A stretch of DNA of 15,287 nucleotides. It comes from a virus. The notes beneath the pieces are model-generated. The model saw only the letters and a list, made by a program, of their open reading frames with translations. It searched no databases and was not told the DNA's origin. Each line of letters starts with the position of its first letter. Position 1 is the first letter of the stretch. Where the stretch lies: the IMG/VR virus record IMGVR_UViG_3300045988_093774, one strand, 5' to 3'. A program made the translations under genes and the position numbers. Shown here in pieces: positions 1 through 15,287 of the stretch.

Positions 1-137
1 CGGTATTTCGTTTTCCCCGCAAAATGCACGATTCCCCTTGTGCTTATAATGCACGATAAGATACAACACAATTAAACGATTGCTTAATTGAATATTGTAT
101 ACAATGTACAGCATACAATTAAACGATTGCTTAATTG
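1..137. repeat. Left inverted terminal repeat (ITR), 137 bp perfect
   Basis: Checked base by base: 1-137 equals the reverse complement of 15151-15287. The next 10 nt match 8/10, then similarity is lost. Confidence 0.97.
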
Positions 138-161
138 AATATTGTATACAATGTACAGCAT
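68..161 (+). repeat. 47-bp direct tandem repeat x2 (68-114 and 115-161), identical copies
   Basis: The unit is acaattaaacgattgcttaattgaatattgtatacaatgtacagcat. Each unit holds an inverted repeat CAATTAA-N8-TTAATTG (69-90) and a 12-bp perfect palindrome ATTGTATACAAT (94-105). The ITR boundary at 137 falls inside copy 2. Confidence 0.95.
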
Positions 162-5162: not shown

Positions 5163-6440
5163 TCAAGGTTTGCCCGTTTTGGTAAAATTTACCGTTGTTT
5201 TTACAGTTTCATCCGGTCTGTAAACAATTTCAATCGCAAGAGTTGGAGCTGTTTCATCCGAGCCGACATACAACTGATCTGTTCCCGGTAGAATGTATGT
5301 GTCTTTTGACGTTGCACCCGATACACTGTAGGTAAGAAGTTTCTGACGGTATGCACCTGTTCCACCTGTCACGGTTGCCGGAATATTGGTCACTGTACCC
5401 GGTGTGTATGTACCAGCTTTCGCGGAAATAGTTAACGACTCTGTAGCTACCTGATCTGTGGTGAACACTCTGATCGGGTAGAACGGTGACGCACTAATCA
5501 TTTCCACCATAGTGTAGAAATAATTCCACGCCAACACGTTCGCAAGTCTCTGGTCGCTCATTTCACGGAACTGATCTCTTACATTGAAAAATCTAATATC
5601 CATCAATACACCCTGAATCGCTGAGTTCGCGAACTTGTCAACAATTACGGTTCTAACATCCACCTGTGTTTTGTCAAGATGGAACGCATAAGCCAGTGCG
5701 TCAACACTAATCTGAGCGTTAACTTTCGGTGTTGTAATGAAGATGAGACTGTACGGTTCAGATGTGGAAGTCGCACCCGCGATGTTATTCGCCGGGTTAG
5801 GGAATTTAAATTCATCTACCGCGGATTTCACCTCTGCAAGCATTCTCTTAGCTGACGCTTCATCCACAACAGCCGGAACAGTGACAGCCGGTAAAATCTG
5901 TTGTGTATATCCAGTGTCAATCATACCTTTCATAGCGTTGTATTCATCCCAGTTCGCGCCGGACACGGCTGACTGCATTTTCATCCCCATCATGTCGCGG
6001 ATTCCGTATTCTGACAAAAATGCTGACCGCAAGTTATCGAATGTTACTGTAACTGGGTACTGCATATTTAGATTGACCTTGTGGAACACGGTCATAATAT
6101 ACGACTGATACTGCTGAAATGCAGACTCGTAGGATTCACGTGGGTCGTACAATTTCCCTTTGCACATATTGACGAATGTTTCTTCATGCGTCATACCATA
6201 ACGCATAGGGTCTTTTTTGTACATAGCAAGAGGATTTTTCCAAGCTGTTGAGTCCACAGTCTGTAGACCGATTCTCTCAAGTAGAGATGGAATAATCTGA
6301 TTTTTACCCTGTGAATAACTCATCATTGTTGTGAAAATCTCAGACAGATTAGTAAGAGTTGCCTCGGGTATTCTGTTTTCAAGTTCATACTCTGACCTCA
6401 TTGCATTTAAAATTGCTGTGTTAGTTGCTTTCGTTGCCAT
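5163..6440 (-). CDS. Major capsid protein (phi29 gp8-like) with C-terminal Ig-like extension (425 aa)
   Basis: ILNAMRSE, SLLERIGLQ...NPLAMYKK and LAWNYFY parallel phi29 gp8 IVNAIRNS, SLVDRIGLV...NPLKKFKK and YWNYYY (from memory). The last 90 aa or so look like a Big_2/Ig-like domain. The start was moved from the track value 6491 to ATG 6440, because SD AAAGGAGAG lies 8 nt upstream and the extra 17 codons are just the palindromic element. Confidence 0.9.
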   Translation of the reverse strand: MATKATNTAILNAMRSEYELENRIPEATLTNLSEIFTTMMSYSQGKNQIIPSLLERIGLQTVDSTAWKNPLAMYKKDPMRYGMTHEETFVNMCKGKLYDPRESYESAFQQYQSYIMTVFHKVNLNMQYPVTVTFDNLRSAFLSEYGIRDMMGMKMQSAVSGANWDEYNAMKGMIDTGYTQQILPAVTVPAVVDEASAKRMLAEVKSAVDEFKFPNPANNIAGATSTSEPYSLIFITTPKVNAQISVDALAYAFHLDKTQVDVRTVIVDKFANSAIQGVLMDIRFFNVRDQFREMSDQRLANVLAWNYFYTMVEMISASPFYPIRVFTTDQVATESLTISAKAGTYTPGTVTNIPATVTGGTGAYRQKLLTYSVSGATSKDTYILPGTDQLYVGSDETAPTLAIEIVYRPDETVKTTVNFTKTGKP

Positions 6441-6463
6441 GTGTGATCTCTCCTTTCTCTGTG

Positions 6464-6481
6464 ATGTTTCACGTGAAACAT
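6464..6481. promoter_or_regulatory. 18-bp perfect palindrome ATGTTTCACGTGAAACAT in the scaffold-capsid intergenic region
   Basis: Self-complementary over all 18 nt and 23 nt upstream of capsid ATG 6440. The block 6451-6481 (palindrome plus SD region) matches 9270-9300 with one mismatch. Confidence 0.7.
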
Positions 6482-6491
6482 CTCTCATCAA

Positions 6492-9282: not shown

Positions 9283-9336
9283 ACGTTTCACGTGAAACAT
9301 GAATCAAAATGTTTCACGTGAAACATGAATCAAAAT
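9283..9336. promoter_or_regulatory. Two tandem copies of the CACGTG-centred palindrome inside a 26-bp direct repeat x2 (9285-9310, 9311-9336)
   Basis: 9309-9326 is the perfect 18-mer ATGTTTCACGTGAAACAT. 9283-9300 matches it 17/18. Both lie between the consensus promoter (9378-9406) and holin ATG 9261. Confidence 0.75.
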
Positions 9337-9337
9337 G

Positions 9338-9371
9338 AACGATTAAACGAATAAGCAATGCCTTAATCGTT
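9338..9371 (-). promoter_or_regulatory. Predicted 5'-terminal stem-loop of the late transcript
   Basis: Arms of 9 bp: AACGATTAA (minus strand, 9371-9363) and TTAATCGTT (9346-9338), with a 16-nt loop. It begins 7-8 nt after the -10 box, at the expected transcription start. Confidence 0.4.
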
Positions 9372-9377
9372 AAACAC

Positions 9378-9406
9378 ATTATAGCAAATTAAAATAGCGG
9401 TGTCAA
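9378..9406 (-). promoter_or_regulatory. Perfect-consensus sigma-A/sigma-70 promoter for the lysis + structural operon
   Basis: Minus strand: TTGACA (9406-9401), a 17-nt spacer, then TATAAT (9383-9378), with TGc immediately upstream of the -10 (extended -10). Confidence 0.8.
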
Positions 9407-9428
9407 CCGTAAATTAGTTGAAACCGCT
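9388..9428 (-). terminator. Intrinsic terminator hairpin ending the ORF-free RNA unit; overlaps the -35 of the next promoter
   Basis: Minus-strand RNA pairs AGCGGU(9428-9423)/ACCGCU(9401-9396) and UCAAC(9421-9417)/GUUGA(9407-9403), with one U.C mismatch and a 9-nt loop, followed by AUUUUAAUUU. An A7 run lies upstream, so the element also looks like a terminator on the plus strand. Confidence 0.6.
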
Positions 9429-9548
9429 TTTTTTCTGCCCGTGACCTCTAAGATAAATCAAAGGGTGCGTTACTCCACCCACCCCGGTTGGCTACTTGCC
9501 CCTTAACGCGTCCGGGCGTGGTCAGTGATTCTACTCAAAGAGGGGAGC
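9390..9548 (-). ncRNA. Candidate structured non-coding RNA (~155-160 nt), possible prohead/packaging RNA analogue
   Basis: It is ORF-free, with no ATG and no SD. It is bounded by its own near-consensus promoter (9555-9583) and a terminator (9388-9428). It is locally GC-rich: 39/60 G+C in 9461-9520 by my count, in an otherwise AT-rich genome. A hand fold gives a 5'/3' end-pairing helix and a three-way junction. It sits directly after the packaging ATPase gene. Confidence 0.45.
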
Positions 9549-9554
9549 AATATT

Positions 9555-9583
9555 ATAATACCATGAATTATTGCCTTTGTCAA
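9555..9583 (-). promoter_or_regulatory. Near-consensus sigma-A promoter driving the ORF-free RNA unit
   Basis: Minus strand: TTGACA (9583-9578), a 17-nt spacer, then TATTAT (9560-9555) preceded by TGg (extended -10). The -35 abuts the ATPase stop codon (9585-9587). The predicted start is near G 9548. Confidence 0.75.
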
Positions 9584-9584
9584 C

Positions 9585-10628
9585 CTATAAAAAAGATAAC
9601 ATGTCTAGCATCATATTTTTACAAGTAAGGTTTTGGAAGCGCATCAAGCCTCGGTGAAAATAATTTCGTAACGCTATGATAATATAGTTACTACTGTTTA
9701 CCATCACTGCGCGATCGTCGACCACGTCTGTGTAGTTGAAACAGACCCGGCGTGGGAATGTTTCGTCTGCCCCCTCTGACACGTAAATGCAACTGTTGTA
9801 TTTCCTGACATTGTACCACATTTCATTGTAACGTACCGAAAGCATATACTCAGACACGCCGTTAGGTCTAGCTATTAAAGCGTCATTGTCATTCAAATAA
9901 ACGTTCTGTGACGCGTGGGAAAAGTATTTTGATCCTGAAAATGCGCGGTTAAAAGCTGAACTCTCAAAAGCTTTACTGGCGTTCTCGTTATATGTTCGCT
10001 CGTACACCCAACCGTCACCACGCAATATTTTTGTGTCACGCTTTAGCATTTTATTAATTCCCAATGCCTGATAATATGGATTAAGAATTGATACGGTATT
10101 ACTAGCCATGTATAAAGGAACGCGCCGACTCTGCTTTCCATCACCACGCGCAATAGATGTGTGTATCGACATTAACTTATCTATTTCGTTTGGTAGATAA
10201 TTGTTAGACTCGTCTTGGTATTCGTCAAAAAACCCGTGAGCAACTTGCACAAAAATAGAAGACATTCGTTTTATTTTGCCTGACAATGACAGTGGCAAGC
10301 ACCAACCACATGGTTTGTCATCTAACAACAACTGCACCACTGCCCCGTCAAACAATTTCTTCTCAGTCATAGTATGACCGTTATAAAACAAGCGTCTTAT
10401 ATCGGTAAAAAACGAATCAGACATAGATTGCATATCTGTTTTGTAACGATAGATAAGATAGAACTGGTTAACGTCTGTTTTTTCTTTCAAAAACGTGTCT
10501 ATTAGCCTACGCTTAAACGAGACCGTTTTTCCCGCTGTTCGGTTTCCGTCTGCAATGTATATATCGGGGTTTTTTCCGTTACGATCTTTTAATGTCAACA
10601 AATAATCACAGTTATAATATTTTCCCAC
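9585..10628 (-). CDS. DNA encapsidation (packaging) ATPase, phi29 gp16-like
   Basis: Walker A is GNRTAGKT and Walker B is GFFDEY. CGWCLPLS, NYLPNEIDKL and NTVSILNPYY parallel phi29 gp16 AGWAIPLS, NYIPNEVSAL and NAVSVVNPYF (from memory). The ORF is open to GTG 10655 (the track start), but GTG 10628 has SD AAGGTG 7 nt upstream and gives an N-terminus (M)GKYYNCDYLL that aligns with the gp16 N-terminus. Confidence 0.9.
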   Translation of the reverse strand: MGKYYNCDYLLTLKDRNGKNPDIYIADGNRTAGKTVSFKRRLIDTFLKEKTDVNQFYLIYRYKTDMQSMSDSFFTDIRRLFYNGHTMTEKKLFDGAVVQLLLDDKPCGWCLPLSLSGKIKRMSSIFVQVAHGFFDEYQDESNNYLPNEIDKLMSIHTSIARGDGKQSRRVPLYMASNTVSILNPYYQALGINKMLKRDTKILRGDGWVYERTYNENASKAFESSAFNRAFSGSKYFSHASQNVYLNDNDALIARPNGVSEYMLSVRYNEMWYNVRKYNSCIYVSEGADETFPRRVCFNYTDVVDDRAVMVNSSNYIIIALRNYFHRGLMRFQNLTCKNMMLDMLSFL

Positions 10629-10794
10629 GTGTAAACACCTTATACCTTTCTCCACTCACTGTCACTATGTTATAACATTGTAATCCCTTTCTGTCTGTGT
10701 ACGGTGTCACAGATTGTACATATGGGTCATTGATGATGCGCATTAATGTGTCAGATGTTACAATAGACATATTCAATTTTTCTAAGTTAATCAT
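10612..10794 (-). CDS. Hypothetical protein (60 aa)
   Basis: The start was moved from track value 10830 to ATG 10794, which has SD AAGGTGGTGG 5 nt upstream. The 3' end overlaps the ATPase start region. No recognisable motif. Confidence 0.5.
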   Translation of the reverse strand: MINLEKLNMSIVTSDTLMRIINDPYVQSVTPYTDRKGLQCYNIVTVSGERYKVFTRGKIL

Positions 10795-14308: not shown

Positions 14309-14326
14309 GATTTTCACGTGAAACAT
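14309..14326. promoter_or_regulatory. Third locus of the CACGTG-centred palindrome (15/18 match, 14312-14326 identical)
   Basis: gattttcacgtgaaacat compared with atgtttcacgtgaaacat. It lies 22 nt upstream of the AbrB-like ATG 14286. Confidence 0.6.
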
Positions 14327-15115: not shown

Positions 15116-15150
15116 GTACAACGTGCATTGTTTTTTATAAATACAATAAA

Positions 15151-15287
15151 CAATTAAGCAATCGTTTAATTGTATGCTGTACATTGTATACAATATTCAA
15201 TTAAGCAATCGTTTAATTGTGTTGTATCTTATCGTGCATTATAAGCACAAGGGGAATCGTGCATTTTGCGGGGAAAACGAAATACCG
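15151..15287. repeat. Right inverted terminal repeat (ITR), 137 bp perfect
   Basis: Reverse complement of 1-137. It contains one full copy (15174-15220) and one 23-nt partial copy (15151-15173) of the 47-bp unit that is fully duplicated at the left end. Confidence 0.97.

What the first reader, a model, noticed from the sequence alone, without database searches (positions are those of the whole stretch)
9388..9583. Autonomous, GC-rich structured RNA unit directly after the packaging ATPase: candidate prohead (packaging) RNA
**Transcription unit.** The 323-nt gap between the ATPase stop (9585) and the holin ATG (9261) has no ORF. On the gene strand it carries TTGACA-17 nt-TATTAT (9583-9555, extended TG). 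About 110 nt of conspicuously GC-rich sequence follows (39/60 G+C in 9461-9520). Then comes a hairpin with a U-rich tail (9428-9388). The predicted RNA is about 155-160 nt.

**Hand fold.**
- The 5' and 3' ends pair: CCUCU 9543-9539 with AGAGG 9449-9445, and GAAUCA 9531-9526 with UGAUUU 9460-9455.
- This helix leads into a three-way junction.
- Arm 1 pairs 9521-9512 with 9487-9479 (9 bp, one bulged G). It encloses an internal loop and a small GGC/GCC hairpin.
- Arm 2 is a hairpin (9478-9475 with 9469-9465).
- CGUUA in the arm-1 internal loop (9508-9504) is complementary to UAACG in and around the arm-2 loop (9472-9468).

**Comparison.** An end-pairing helix, a three-way junction and complementary loops are the design principles of phi29 pRNA, whose loop-loop pairing builds the ring on the connector. 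To my knowledge pRNAs are established only for Bacillus phi29 relatives, where the gene lies at a genome end rather than next to gene 16.

**Alternative.** The region could be a long regulatory leader or attenuator for the late operon.
Basis: partly seen in the sequence, partly recalled or inferred. Interest (0 to 1): 0.85.

Follow-up and report, generated by a model that had tools for sequence, protein, structure and literature searches.

The report
Packaging-RNA-like gene beside phage ATPase
A small phi29-like phage genome carries, right after its DNA-packaging ATPase gene, a 112-nt RNA gene built like the phi29 prohead (packaging) RNA, which suggests that this RNA motor part is not confined to Bacillus phages.

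Summary

**What is there**
- The window is a complete 15.3-kb phi29-like genome. It has 147-nt terminal inverted repeats, a gp16 ATPase, a gp10 connector and a protein-primed polymerase.
- Two nt after the ATPase stop lies a near-consensus promoter. Its predicted start, G9548, is the first base of a 112-nt RNA (9548-9437, minus strand).
- An A-rich linker and a terminator follow the RNA.
- A second, perfect promoter then drives the late genes.

**Structure**
- Homologous RNAs sit at the same place in about 80 related contigs of five lineages.
- 97% of pair cells are paired, against 70% when shuffled. 32 of 37 pairs change on both sides.
- The fold has an end-pairing helix and a three-way junction.
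- One arm is a 9-bp helix with one bulge, an internal loop and a small hairpin. The other arm is a hairpin.
- The internal loop and the hairpin loop stay complementary while their sequences are replaced (GCGUUA/UAACGC, GAAUCAA/UUGAUUC, GGAUA/UAUCC, ACGCA/UGCGU, CCCA/UGGG). This is the phi29 pRNA layout.

**Wider spread**
- A second phage clade shows the same design. It includes cultured Clostridium symbiosum phages.
- Single-sequence folds suggest the same design in phage HM2 and in C. perfringens phages.

**Limits**
- The Rfam pRNA model does not match, but it also misses the accepted GA-1 pRNA.
- Packaging function and ring formation are inferred, not shown.

The parts
9585..10655 (-). DNA-packaging ATPase gene (gp16 type); stop codon TAG at 9587-9585
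   Evidence: Pfam PF05894 Podovirus_Gp16, E 1e-27. Closest phage records are 37-41% identical.
9555..9583 (-). Promoter of the RNA gene. -35 TTGACA 9583-9578, TG 9563-9562, -10 TATTAT 9560-9555. The predicted +1 is G9548.
   Evidence: Consensus scan, 11 of 12 matches with TG; sequence. A promoter with the same 6-7 nt spacing to the first paired G is present in all five lineages (read).
9437..9548 (-). RNA domain I, 112 nt. End-pairing helix plus three-way junction, the pRNA-like core.
   Evidence: Models R1 and R2 hit only here in the window (140 and 117 bits). Covariation: 97.2% of cells paired, 32 of 37 pairs with double changes.
9437..9460 (-). 3' strand of the end helix. P1c 9460-9455, conserved AUCUU 9454-9450, P1b 9449-9445, conserved 4-nt loop UCAC 9444-9441, P1a 9440-9437.
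   Evidence: Pairs with 9548-9545, 9543-9539 and 9531-9526. Helices 1-3 are 96-100% paired. The UNAC loop and the single bulged C9544 are conserved in all lineages.
9479..9521 (-). Arm 1 (like the C helix, CE loop and E hairpin of pRNA). Helix 9521-9518 and 9516-9512 with 9487-9479 (9 bp, G9517 bulged). Internal loop 9511-9501. Hairpin 9500-9490 (GGC-AAGUA-GCC).
   Evidence: Helix 4: nine pairs, all with double changes, 99.4% paired. Helix 6: 100% paired.
9504..9509 (-). Loop-loop pairing, internal-loop side: GCGUUA
   Evidence: Complementary to 9472-9467. Five of six pairs covary and 88.8% of cells are paired, on an alignment whose model did not include this helix. A 6-bp Watson-Crick run occurs in 0.2% of loop shuffles.
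9464..9476 (-). Arm 2 (like the D hairpin of pRNA). Invariant GG/CC stem (9476-9475 with 9465-9464), 9-nt loop 9474-9466, pairing residues UAACGC 9472-9467.
   Evidence: GG-N9-CC-CUU is conserved in all lineages. Loop covariation.
9386..9436 (-). A-rich linker (9436-9428) and intrinsic terminator (hairpin 9427-9397, U tract 9396-9386); the 3' domain of the transcript.
   Evidence: Sequence and MFE fold. Relatives keep a hairpin here through compensatory changes, for example GCGAU..AUCGC (read).
9378..9406 (-). Second promoter, for the late operon. TTGACA 9406-9401, 17 nt, TATAAT 9383-9378. Its -35 lies in the 3' arm of the terminator hairpin.
   Evidence: 12 of 12 matches with TG.
9283..9336 (-). 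Two tandem 26-nt repeats, each carrying the palindrome ATGTTTCACGTGAAACAT, in the late leader just before the holin ribosome-binding site and ATG 9261. A neighbouring feature, not part of the RNA.
   Evidence: Repeat families D4, D5, I9, I10 and I18. Conserved in relatives and in other Clostridium phages.

Best explanation
**What it is.** The segment 9548-9437 (minus strand) is a gene for a stable non-coding RNA. Its full transcript is about 160 nt. I read it as the counterpart, in this phage lineage, of the phi29 prohead/packaging RNA (pRNA).

**Shown here**
- It is a separate unit with its own promoter and terminator, directly after the gp16-type ATPase gene.
- The RNA folds into a long helix formed by its two ends, with a conserved C bulge opposite a UNAC loop.
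- That helix opens into a three-way junction. One arm is a 9-bp helix with one bulge, a roughly 11-nt internal loop and a small hairpin. The other arm is a short hairpin with a 9-nt loop.
- Five to seven bases of the internal loop stay Watson-Crick complementary to the hairpin loop in every lineage, although the sequences differ.

**Inferred by analogy with phi29**
- The loop-loop pairing joins neighbouring RNA molecules into a ring on the connector (gp10) of the empty prohead.
- The end helices project from the ring and dock the ATPase. The RNA thus forms the bridge between portal and motor during packaging of the protein-capped genome.
- The RNA is lost from the finished virion.
- Keeping the RNA gene next to the ATPase gene keeps the two interacting motor parts together.
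For: **Context**
- The window is a phi29-like genome: gp16 ATPase, connector, Phi29 capsid protein, gp9 knob and protein-primed polymerase, with 147-nt terminal repeats.

**Separate gene**
- Promoter with +1 on the first paired base, a terminator, then a perfect second promoter.
- No ORF in the gap, and the core is the GC maximum of the genome.

**Conservation**
- The same RNA lies at the same place in 79 of the 80 related contigs; the 80th sequence (L073) diverges after about 113 nt.
- A model built from one lineage plus L027 finds the other lineages full-length at the expected coordinates (E 1e-3 to 1e-13).

**Covariation**
- 97.2% of cells are paired, against 70.0% when shuffled and 32-45% when slid. 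32 of 37 pairs have changes on both sides.
- The loop-loop helix was not in the model, yet 88.8% of its cells are paired and five of six pairs covary.
- The register is the same in five of six lineage representatives.

**Match to phi29 pRNA**
- The Rfam consensus structure of RF00044 has the same order of elements and near-identical sizes.
- Domain I is 110-112 nt here and 118 nt in phi29.

**Replication in other phages**
- In a second clade (79 of 80 contigs, including cultured C. symbiosum phages CS229P1-3), a plain MAFFT alignment gives 91.3% paired against 72.5% shuffled. All five loop-loop pairs covary.
- Phage HM2 has 7-bp loop complementarity, and C. perfringens phages have GCCA/UGGC.

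**Energetics**
- The comparative fold (-30.2 kcal/mol) plus the loop duplex (-7.9) is comparable to the MFE of -36.8.
Against: - There is no experimental evidence of any kind: no expression data, no prohead binding, no packaging assay.
- No sequence or model similarity to Bacillus pRNAs was found. RF00044 gives no hit even at E<=10 on the 123-nt stretch. Model R2 finds nothing in phi29, B103, GA-1 or Cp-1.
- Details differ from phi29:
  - the gene sits next to gene 16, not near a genome end;
  - the end helix has a C bulge and UNAC loop instead of the CCA bulge;
  - the D stem has only 2 conserved pairs but a 9-nt loop;
  - there are 3-4 unpaired bases on both sides of the junction.
- Covariation cannot tell pairing between molecules from an internal pseudoknot.
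- The first clade has only five independent lineages, so the cell counts overstate the number of events.
- The single-sequence MFE differs from the comparative fold in arm 1, and the core z-score is -0.43.
- The connector N-terminus lacks the RKR motif that, from my memory of the phi29 literature, contacts pRNA.
Confidence: 0.72

Rival explanations
1. It is a stable structured non-coding RNA whose two loops pair within one molecule (an internal pseudoknot). Its job is unrelated to packaging, for example titrating a host factor, countering a defence system, or regulating in trans. The resemblance to pRNA would then be convergent.
For: - Covariation supports the fold but not the function, and not pairing between molecules.
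- No detectable similarity to Bacillus pRNAs.
- In C. perfringens phages the look-alike RNA is not next to the ATPase gene.
Against: - The RNA is linked to the gp16 gene in two clades whose surrounding gene order differs.
- It occurs in phages whose motor type is the one known to need an RNA.
- The element-by-element match of sizes and order to pRNA would be a striking coincidence.
- No other pRNA candidate was found in the window.
Confidence: 0.18
2. It is a cis-acting leader of the late operon, a riboswitch or attenuator. The structured domain would sense a signal and control the terminator at 9427-9386, so that read-through from the first promoter expresses the late genes.
For: - A structured domain followed by a terminator upstream of an operon is the classical riboswitch layout.
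- The palindromes further downstream indicate that this region is regulated.
Against: - A 12-of-12 consensus promoter lies after, and overlapping, the terminator, so the late genes do not need read-through.
- I saw no alternative antiterminator pairing between the 3' strand of the end helix and the terminator.
- In the CS229P2 clade the same kind of RNA follows the ATPase stop by 3-10 nt in most contigs. In CS229P2 itself it lies about 25 nt after the stop, behind a copy of the palindrome, and ends at a terminator facing a convergent gene, with nothing downstream to regulate.
- No Rfam riboswitch matches.
Confidence: 0.05
3. It is a 3'-UTR element of the ATPase mRNA that stabilises or processes the message, with no role as a free RNA.
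For: In the second clade the RNA starts 3-10 nt after the ATPase stop in most contigs, with no recognisable promoter in the 75 nt upstream.
Against: - In the window and all its close lineages the RNA has its own near-consensus promoter after the stop codon, with +1 on the first paired base.
- A three-way junction with covarying loop-loop pairing is far more elaborate than a protective 3' hairpin. A separate terminator hairpin already follows it.
Confidence: 0.04

Closest known systems
Prohead/packaging RNA (pRNA) of Bacillus phages phi29, PZA, M2/Nf, B103, SF5 and GA-1 (Rfam RF00044 models the phi29 3WJ core)
   Same: - It is encoded by a phi29-like phage with a gp16 ATPase and a gp10 connector.
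- It has its own promoter and terminator, as in GA-1.
- Domain I is about 110-120 nt, followed by a 3' domain.
- The 5' and 3' ends pair in a long bulged helix that opens into a three-way junction.
- One arm is a 9-bp helix with one bulged base on the 5' strand, an internal loop of about 10 nt and a small hairpin.
- The linker to the second hairpin is U-rich in lineage E and clade II (GU in the window, AAC in L029 and L032).
- The internal loop and the hairpin loop are complementary over 4-7 bp and covary between phages.
   Different: - No sequence or covariance-model similarity.
- The gene lies next to gene 16, not in the left early region.
- The end helix carries a single C bulge opposite a UNAC loop, not the CCA bulge.
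- The D stem is only 2-4 bp, with a 9-nt loop.
- There are extra unpaired bases at the junction (CUGA and CUU).
- The loop duplexes are longer and more stable than in phi29 (-4.2 to -7.9 against -2.9 kcal/mol).
- The hosts are Clostridia-type gut bacteria where known.
- The function is untested.
Putative pRNA of Streptococcus phage Cp-1 (cited as reference 61 in PMC6266182)
   Same: It is a proposed pRNA outside the Bacillus phages that sequence-based models do not find. [quoted passage not shown]
   Different: - It is not annotated in the Cp-1 record, and model R2 does not match Cp-1.
- I could not read the original description, so no structural comparison was made.
Riboswitch or attenuator leaders (structured aptamer followed by an intrinsic terminator)
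   Same: A structured domain is followed by a terminator upstream of an operon.
   Different: - The RNA has its own promoter with +1 on the first paired base, and an independent consensus promoter serves the operon.
- Relatives have no downstream gene on the same strand.
- No Rfam match.

Membership tests
phi29-type pRNA | Encoded by a phi29-like phage: protein-primed linear genome, gp16-type ATPase without a small terminase, gp10-type connector | tested here: met
   PF05894, PF05352, PF03175, PF25622 and PF20934. 147-nt terminal inverted repeats.
phi29-type pRNA | Independent small RNA gene with its own promoter and terminator, of about 120 nt (domain I) up to about 170 nt | tested here: met
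   Predicted from sequence only. The promoter is at 9583-9555, +1 at G9548 and the terminator at 9427-9386. The core is 112 nt and the transcript about 161 nt. Expression was not tested.
phi29-type pRNA | 5' and 3' ends pair in a long bulged helix (the A helix) | tested here: met
   Helices 1-3 comprise 17 pairs; 15 show changes on both sides and 96-100% of cells are paired. The kind of bulge differs: C with UNAC here, CCA in phi29.
phi29-type pRNA | Three-way junction with a C/E arm (helix, internal CE loop, E hairpin) and a D hairpin | tested here: met
   Helices 4, 6 and 7. The order and sizes of the elements match the RF00044 structure line.
phi29-type pRNA | CE loop and D loop are Watson-Crick complementary, and the complementarity is kept by covariation among phages | tested here: met
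   Helix 5 and helix 5. There are six different loop pairs in clade I and at least seven in clade II. HM2 and phiCPV4 add one each.
phi29-type pRNA | The loop pairing joins separate molecules, giving a ring (pentamer or hexamer) on the prohead | not testable with these tools
   Covariation cannot separate pairing between molecules from pairing within one. It needs native gels with pairs of loop mutants, or cryo-EM.
phi29-type pRNA | Binds the connector or prohead, docks the ATPase, is required for DNA packaging and is absent from mature virions | not testable with these tools
   No experimental data. The connector N-terminus lacks the RKR motif recalled from the phi29 literature, which is weak negative evidence.
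phi29-type pRNA | Match to the Rfam family model RF00044 | tested here: inconclusive
   There is no hit at the gathering threshold or at E<=10. The model scores phi29 at 145 bits and B103 at only 50 bits, below its threshold of 100. It gives no hit at all on the annotated GA-1 pRNA. Failure therefore does not exclude membership.
phi29-type pRNA | Gene located in the left early region, away from gene 16 | tested here: not met
   Here the gene begins 2 nt after the gene-16-type stop codon. In GA-1 it lies at 1719-1879, with gene 16 at 16590-17600. Location is a habit of the Bacillus phages rather than part of the mechanism.
Riboswitch or attenuator leader | Expression of the downstream gene depends on read-through of the terminator that follows the structured domain | tested here: not met
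   Tested by sequence only. A 12-of-12 promoter overlaps the terminator. In CS229P2 the gene after the RNA is convergent.

The most novel reading that the evidence does not exclude
**Main reading.** The RNA component of the packaging motor is not a peculiarity of Bacillus phages. It would be an old and widespread part of phi29-like phages of Firmicutes, evolving so fast in sequence that only its architecture survives. Carriers would include abundant uncultured phages whose nearest named relatives come from human faecal viromes, the cultured C. symbiosum phages CS229P1-3, phage HM2 and the C. perfringens phages.

**Bolder sub-reading.** In most contigs of the CS229P clade the RNA starts 3-10 nt after the ATPase stop codon with no promoter of its own. 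It might be made as the 3' end of the ATPase mRNA, which would couple production, and perhaps assembly, of the ATPase and its RNA dock.
Probability: 0.6. Interest if true: 0.85.

Novelty: new variant of a known kind. Interest (0 to 1): 0.8.

Why it matters
- **Current view.** pRNA is the only known RNA that forms part of a viral DNA-packaging motor. A 2016 review and a 2024 review still call it unique to phi29 and related Bacillus phages.
- **Origin of the RNA.** A divergent family with the same architecture, in at least two large clades of non-Bacillus phi29-like phages, bears on whether the RNA is ancestral to this motor type. It would show which features are truly required: the end helix, the 9-bp arm and the loop-loop pairing. 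The CCA bulge and the exact sequence would not be.
- **Material for RNA engineering.** The family supplies dozens of natural loop-pair variants for work that now relies on phi29 pRNA.
- **Testability.** CS229P1-3, HM2 and the C. perfringens phages are cultured, so the idea can be tested directly.
- **Annotation.** The region is unannotated in the CS229P2 and phiCPV4 records read here and in most of the C. perfringens phage records; two records place a hypothetical protein there.

Tried and rejected
- **Rfam scans** of the whole window and of small sub-regions gave no pRNA match. I rejected this as evidence against after controls showed that the model misses GA-1 and scores B103 below its threshold.
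- **MFE z-score** as a test of structure was uninformative. The core scores -0.43 and the true GA-1 pRNA -1.10. The MFE also mispairs arm 1.
- **Plain MAFFT alignment across all lineages** (A1, A2) shifts the 5' end and arm 1 of distant lineages. I replaced it with a model-based alignment (A4). L031 is still misaligned in arm 1 there.
- **Models R1 and R2 on more distant phages**:
  - With default filters there were no hits.
  - With filters off there were only weak hits. MT835814 scored 13.3 bits exactly after its ATPase stop. phiCPV4 scored 10.5 bits in a GC-rich gap. Nothing credible appeared in phi29, B103, GA-1 or Cp-1.
  - Homology of the clades with each other and with Bacillus pRNA therefore rests on architecture, not on scores.
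- **Promoter upstream of the clade-II RNAs**: none recognised.
- **Covariation in the C. perfringens phage RNA**: only near-identical relatives are available, with two or three compensatory changes against CPS2 and one broken pair.
- **Connector N-terminus** as a marker of RNA binding: not informative.
- **MT835904 and MT836152**: the regions downstream of the ATPase were read but I could not resolve a loop-loop pairing by eye.
- **Literature searches** for pRNA outside Bacillus phages found only the mention of Cp-1.
Full report
**1. What the window is**

The 15,287-bp window is a complete linear genome. Its ends are 147-nt inverted repeats, 99% complementary. All genes lie on the minus strand.

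Pfam identifies these proteins:
- a gp16-type packaging ATPase (9585-10655);
- a protein-primed family-B DNA polymerase;
- a Phi29-type major capsid protein;
- a gp9 tail knob;
- a gp10 connector;
- an endolysin.

PHROGs adds a holin and a lower collar protein. This is a phi29-like podophage.

Its closest named relatives are only 37-41% identical in the ATPase. They are faecal virome contigs, the Clostridium symbiosum phages CS229P1-3, and Clostridium phage HM2.

**2.

- The 323-nt gap between the ATPase stop (TAG, 9587-9585) and the holin ATG (9261) has no ORF.
- On the gene strand a promoter starts two bases after the stop codon. It reads TTGACA 9583-9578, a 17-nt spacer with TG, and TATTAT 9560-9555.
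- Seven bases after the -10 lies G9548. This is exactly the first base of the helix formed by the two ends of the RNA.
- The 112 nt from 9548 to 9437 are the most GC-rich 112-nt stretch of the genome (57.1% against 39.1%).
- An A-rich linker follows, then a terminator hairpin (9427-9397) with a U tract (9396-9386).
- A second promoter, a 12-of-12 consensus match, spans 9406-9378. Its -35 sits inside the 3' arm of the terminator. The late operon therefore has its own promoter.

**3. Relatives and the fold**

The ATPase retrieved 80 related viral contigs. Every one with intact downstream sequence has a homologous RNA of 110-117 nt at the same place, behind a promoter with the same spacing to the first paired G.

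The RNAs fall into five lineages:
- the window's own group, whose RNA and flanking region is 82-98% identical to the window;
- L027, about 70% identical;
- L029-L031;
- L032;
- a large AT-rich group, L033-L083.

I built a covariance model from the first two lineages only. It found all the others full-length at the expected coordinates (E about 1e-3 to 1e-13).

Pair counts on the resulting alignment:

| Measure | Result |
|---|---|
| Cells paired | 97.2% |
| Cells paired after shuffling | 70.0% |
| Cells paired with partners slid 1-3 columns | 32-45% |
| Pairs with changes on both sides | 32 of 37 |

The supported structure, in RNA positions (window coordinate = 9549 minus position):

| Element | Positions |
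|---|---|
| P1a | 1-4 with 109-112 |
| Bulged C | 5 |
| Conserved UNAC loop | 105-108 |
| P1b | 6-10 with 100-104 |
| P1c | 18-23 with 89-94 |
| Arm 1 helix (9 bp, G32 bulged) | 28-31 and 33-37 with 62-70 |
| Internal loop | 38-48 |
| Small hairpin | 49-51 with 57-59 |
| Arm 2 stem (9-nt loop) | 73-74 with 84-85 |

**4. The loop-loop pairing**

This helix was not part of the model, so the alignment could not be fitted to it. It still has 88.8% of cells paired, and five of six pairs change on both sides.

| Lineage | Internal loop / hairpin loop |
|---|---|
| Window group | GCGUUA / UAACGC |
| L027 | GAAUCAA / UUGAUUC |
| L029 | CCCA / UGGG |
| L031 | UCCA / UGGA |
| L032 | GGAUA / UAUCC |
| AT-rich group | ACGCA / UGCGU |

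- The register relative to the flanking helices is the same in five of six representatives.
- For the window, a 6-bp Watson-Crick run arises in 0.2% of loop shuffles.
- The comparative fold (-30.2 kcal/mol) plus the loop duplex (-7.9) roughly equals the MFE of -36.8.

**5. Comparison with phi29 pRNA**

The Rfam consensus structure printed for phi29 compares as follows.

| Element | phi29 | This RNA |
|---|---|---|
| End helix | bulged | bulged |
| Arm helix | 5 bp, one bulged base, 4 bp | 4 bp, one bulged base, 5 bp |
| Internal loop | 9 nt | 10-11 nt |
| Small hairpin | 4 bp | 3-4 bp |
| Junction linker | UUU | 2-7 nt; U-rich in lineage E and clade II (GU in the window, AAC in L029 and L032) |
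| Second hairpin | pairs with the internal loop | pairs with the internal loop |
| Core length | 118 nt | 110-112 nt |

The differences are these:
- the kind of bulge in the end helix;
- a shorter D stem with a larger loop;
- extra unpaired junction bases;
- the position of the gene.

**6. Why the Rfam failure is not informative**

RF00044 scores phi29 at 145 bits. B103 reaches only 50 bits, below the threshold of 100. The annotated GA-1 pRNA gives no hit at all at E<=10. pRNA sequences diverge beyond the reach of this model even among accepted members. In the same way, model R2 does not see the Bacillus or Cp-1 genomes.

**7. Replication in other phages**

*Second clade.* The ATPase of CS229P2 retrieved 80 more contigs.
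- 79 of them carry an RNA of 109-114 nt. In most it starts 3-10 nt after the ATPase stop and ends just before a strong terminator.
- On a plain MAFFT alignment 91.3% of cells are paired, against 72.5% when shuffled and 29-46% when slid. All five loop-loop pairs covary.
- The arm-1 helix covaries widely when indexed from its anchors.
- Loop pairs include AAGCA/UGCUU, UAGCA/UGCUA, UUGCA/UGCAG, GCGC/GCGU and, in CS229P, CUGUA/UACAG.
- In CS229P2 the ATPase-plus-RNA unit is inverted between the early and late operons and faces a convergent gene. The RNA there cannot be a leader.
- Model R2 gave a weak hit (13.3 bits) on MT835814, exactly after its ATPase stop.

*HM2.* It has the same layout, with its own promoter and a 7-bp loop pair, GUAGUCU/AGACUAC.

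*C. perfringens phages.* In the phiCPV4 group a 57%-GC intergenic segment upstream of the head genes folds the same way, with GCCA/UGGC. Its covariation data are thin.

**8. Mechanism and rivals**

*Shown.* This is a conserved, separately promoted, structured RNA gene linked to the packaging ATPase gene, with pRNA architecture.

*Inferred.* It assembles on the connector through loop pairing between molecules and docks the ATPase, as phi29 pRNA does.

*Rivals*, as scored in the rival list:
- an RNA with an internal pseudoknot and another function, about 0.18;
- a late-operon attenuator, about 0.05;
- a 3'-UTR element, about 0.04.

The attenuator reading is disfavoured by the second promoter and by the synteny of clade II.

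**9. Novelty**

- Two reviews (2016 and 2024) describe pRNA as unique to phi29 and related Bacillus phages. A 2026 review still discusses pRNA only for phi29.
- One paper mentions a reported Cp-1 pRNA that its model could not reliably find.
- My literature searches found no report of such RNAs in Clostridium or gut phages.
- The RNA has no Rfam family.
- I file it as a new variant of a known kind. It works like a pRNA on every test that sequence allows. Membership by descent is unproven, and function is untested.

Noticed in passing
window 6464-6481, 9283-9300, 9309-9326, 14311-14326: The 18-bp palindrome ATGTTTCACGTGAAACAT occurs four times. On the gene strand each copy lies about 15 nt upstream of a ribosome-binding site. 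A 32-nt palindrome-plus-RBS module precedes both the holin gene and the capsid gene. The same palindrome occurs at several places per genome in relatives, overlapping the -35 of the RNA promoter in the AT-rich lineage. It also occurs in CS229P2 and MT835854, and at 92% identity over 41 nt in C. perfringens phages. It is probably an operator for a dimeric regulator, or an RNA hairpin. No regulator was identified.
   Followed up: partly
L094 (phiCPV4) 16180-16290, minus strand; the same region in 17 C. perfringens phage records: A 57%-GC intergenic segment between the SpoVG-like gene and the head genes. It has a terminator and a promoter upstream. It folds into an end helix, an arm with internal loop CGCCA plus a hairpin, and a second hairpin with loop UGGC (GCCA/UGGC complementary). 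It is a possible pRNA-like gene that is not adjacent to the ATPase. Most records leave it unannotated or call it a hypothetical protein.
   Followed up: partly
L090 (Clostridium phage HM2), about 6080-6250, plus strand: Directly after the ATPase gene lies a promoter (TTGACC, 17 nt, TAAGAT) and an RNA of about 87 nt with the same layout. Its loop pair is 7 bp, GUAGUCU/AGACUAC, at -9.7 kcal/mol.
   Followed up: partly
L095-L174 (CS229P2-like contigs), just after the ATPase stop: In this clade the RNA begins 3-10 nt after the stop codon in most contigs, and no promoter is recognisable in the 75 nt upstream. It may be made as the 3' end of the ATPase mRNA and then processed. One contig (L131) lacks the RNA and has different sequence there.
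   Followed up: partly
window 1-147 and 15141-15287: 147-nt inverted terminal repeats, 99% complementary, with internal 47-nt tandem repeats. The window is a whole protein-primed genome.
   Followed up: no
window 9338-9370: The late leader, between the second promoter and the palindromes, holds a hairpin-forming motif (AACGATTAA..TTAATCGTT). It is related to the motif repeated in the terminal repeats (family D1, 70-73% identity). It may be a shared protein-binding site.
   Followed up: no
window 9397-9406: The -35 hexamer of the late promoter lies inside the 3' arm of the RNA gene's terminator hairpin. Termination of the RNA and initiation of late transcription therefore share the same DNA.
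   Followed up: no
window 6440-6491: The ORF list starts the capsid gene at a TTG at 6491. The conserved palindrome-plus-RBS module at 6450-6481 suggests that the real start is about 16 codons downstream. The Pfam match, which begins at residue 28, agrees.
   Followed up: no
L033-L083, junction between arm 1 and arm 2 of the RNA: The U run linking the two arms varies from 4 to 7 U among otherwise near-identical RNAs. This suggests a flexible linker at the position of the UUU bulge of phi29 pRNA.
   Followed up: no
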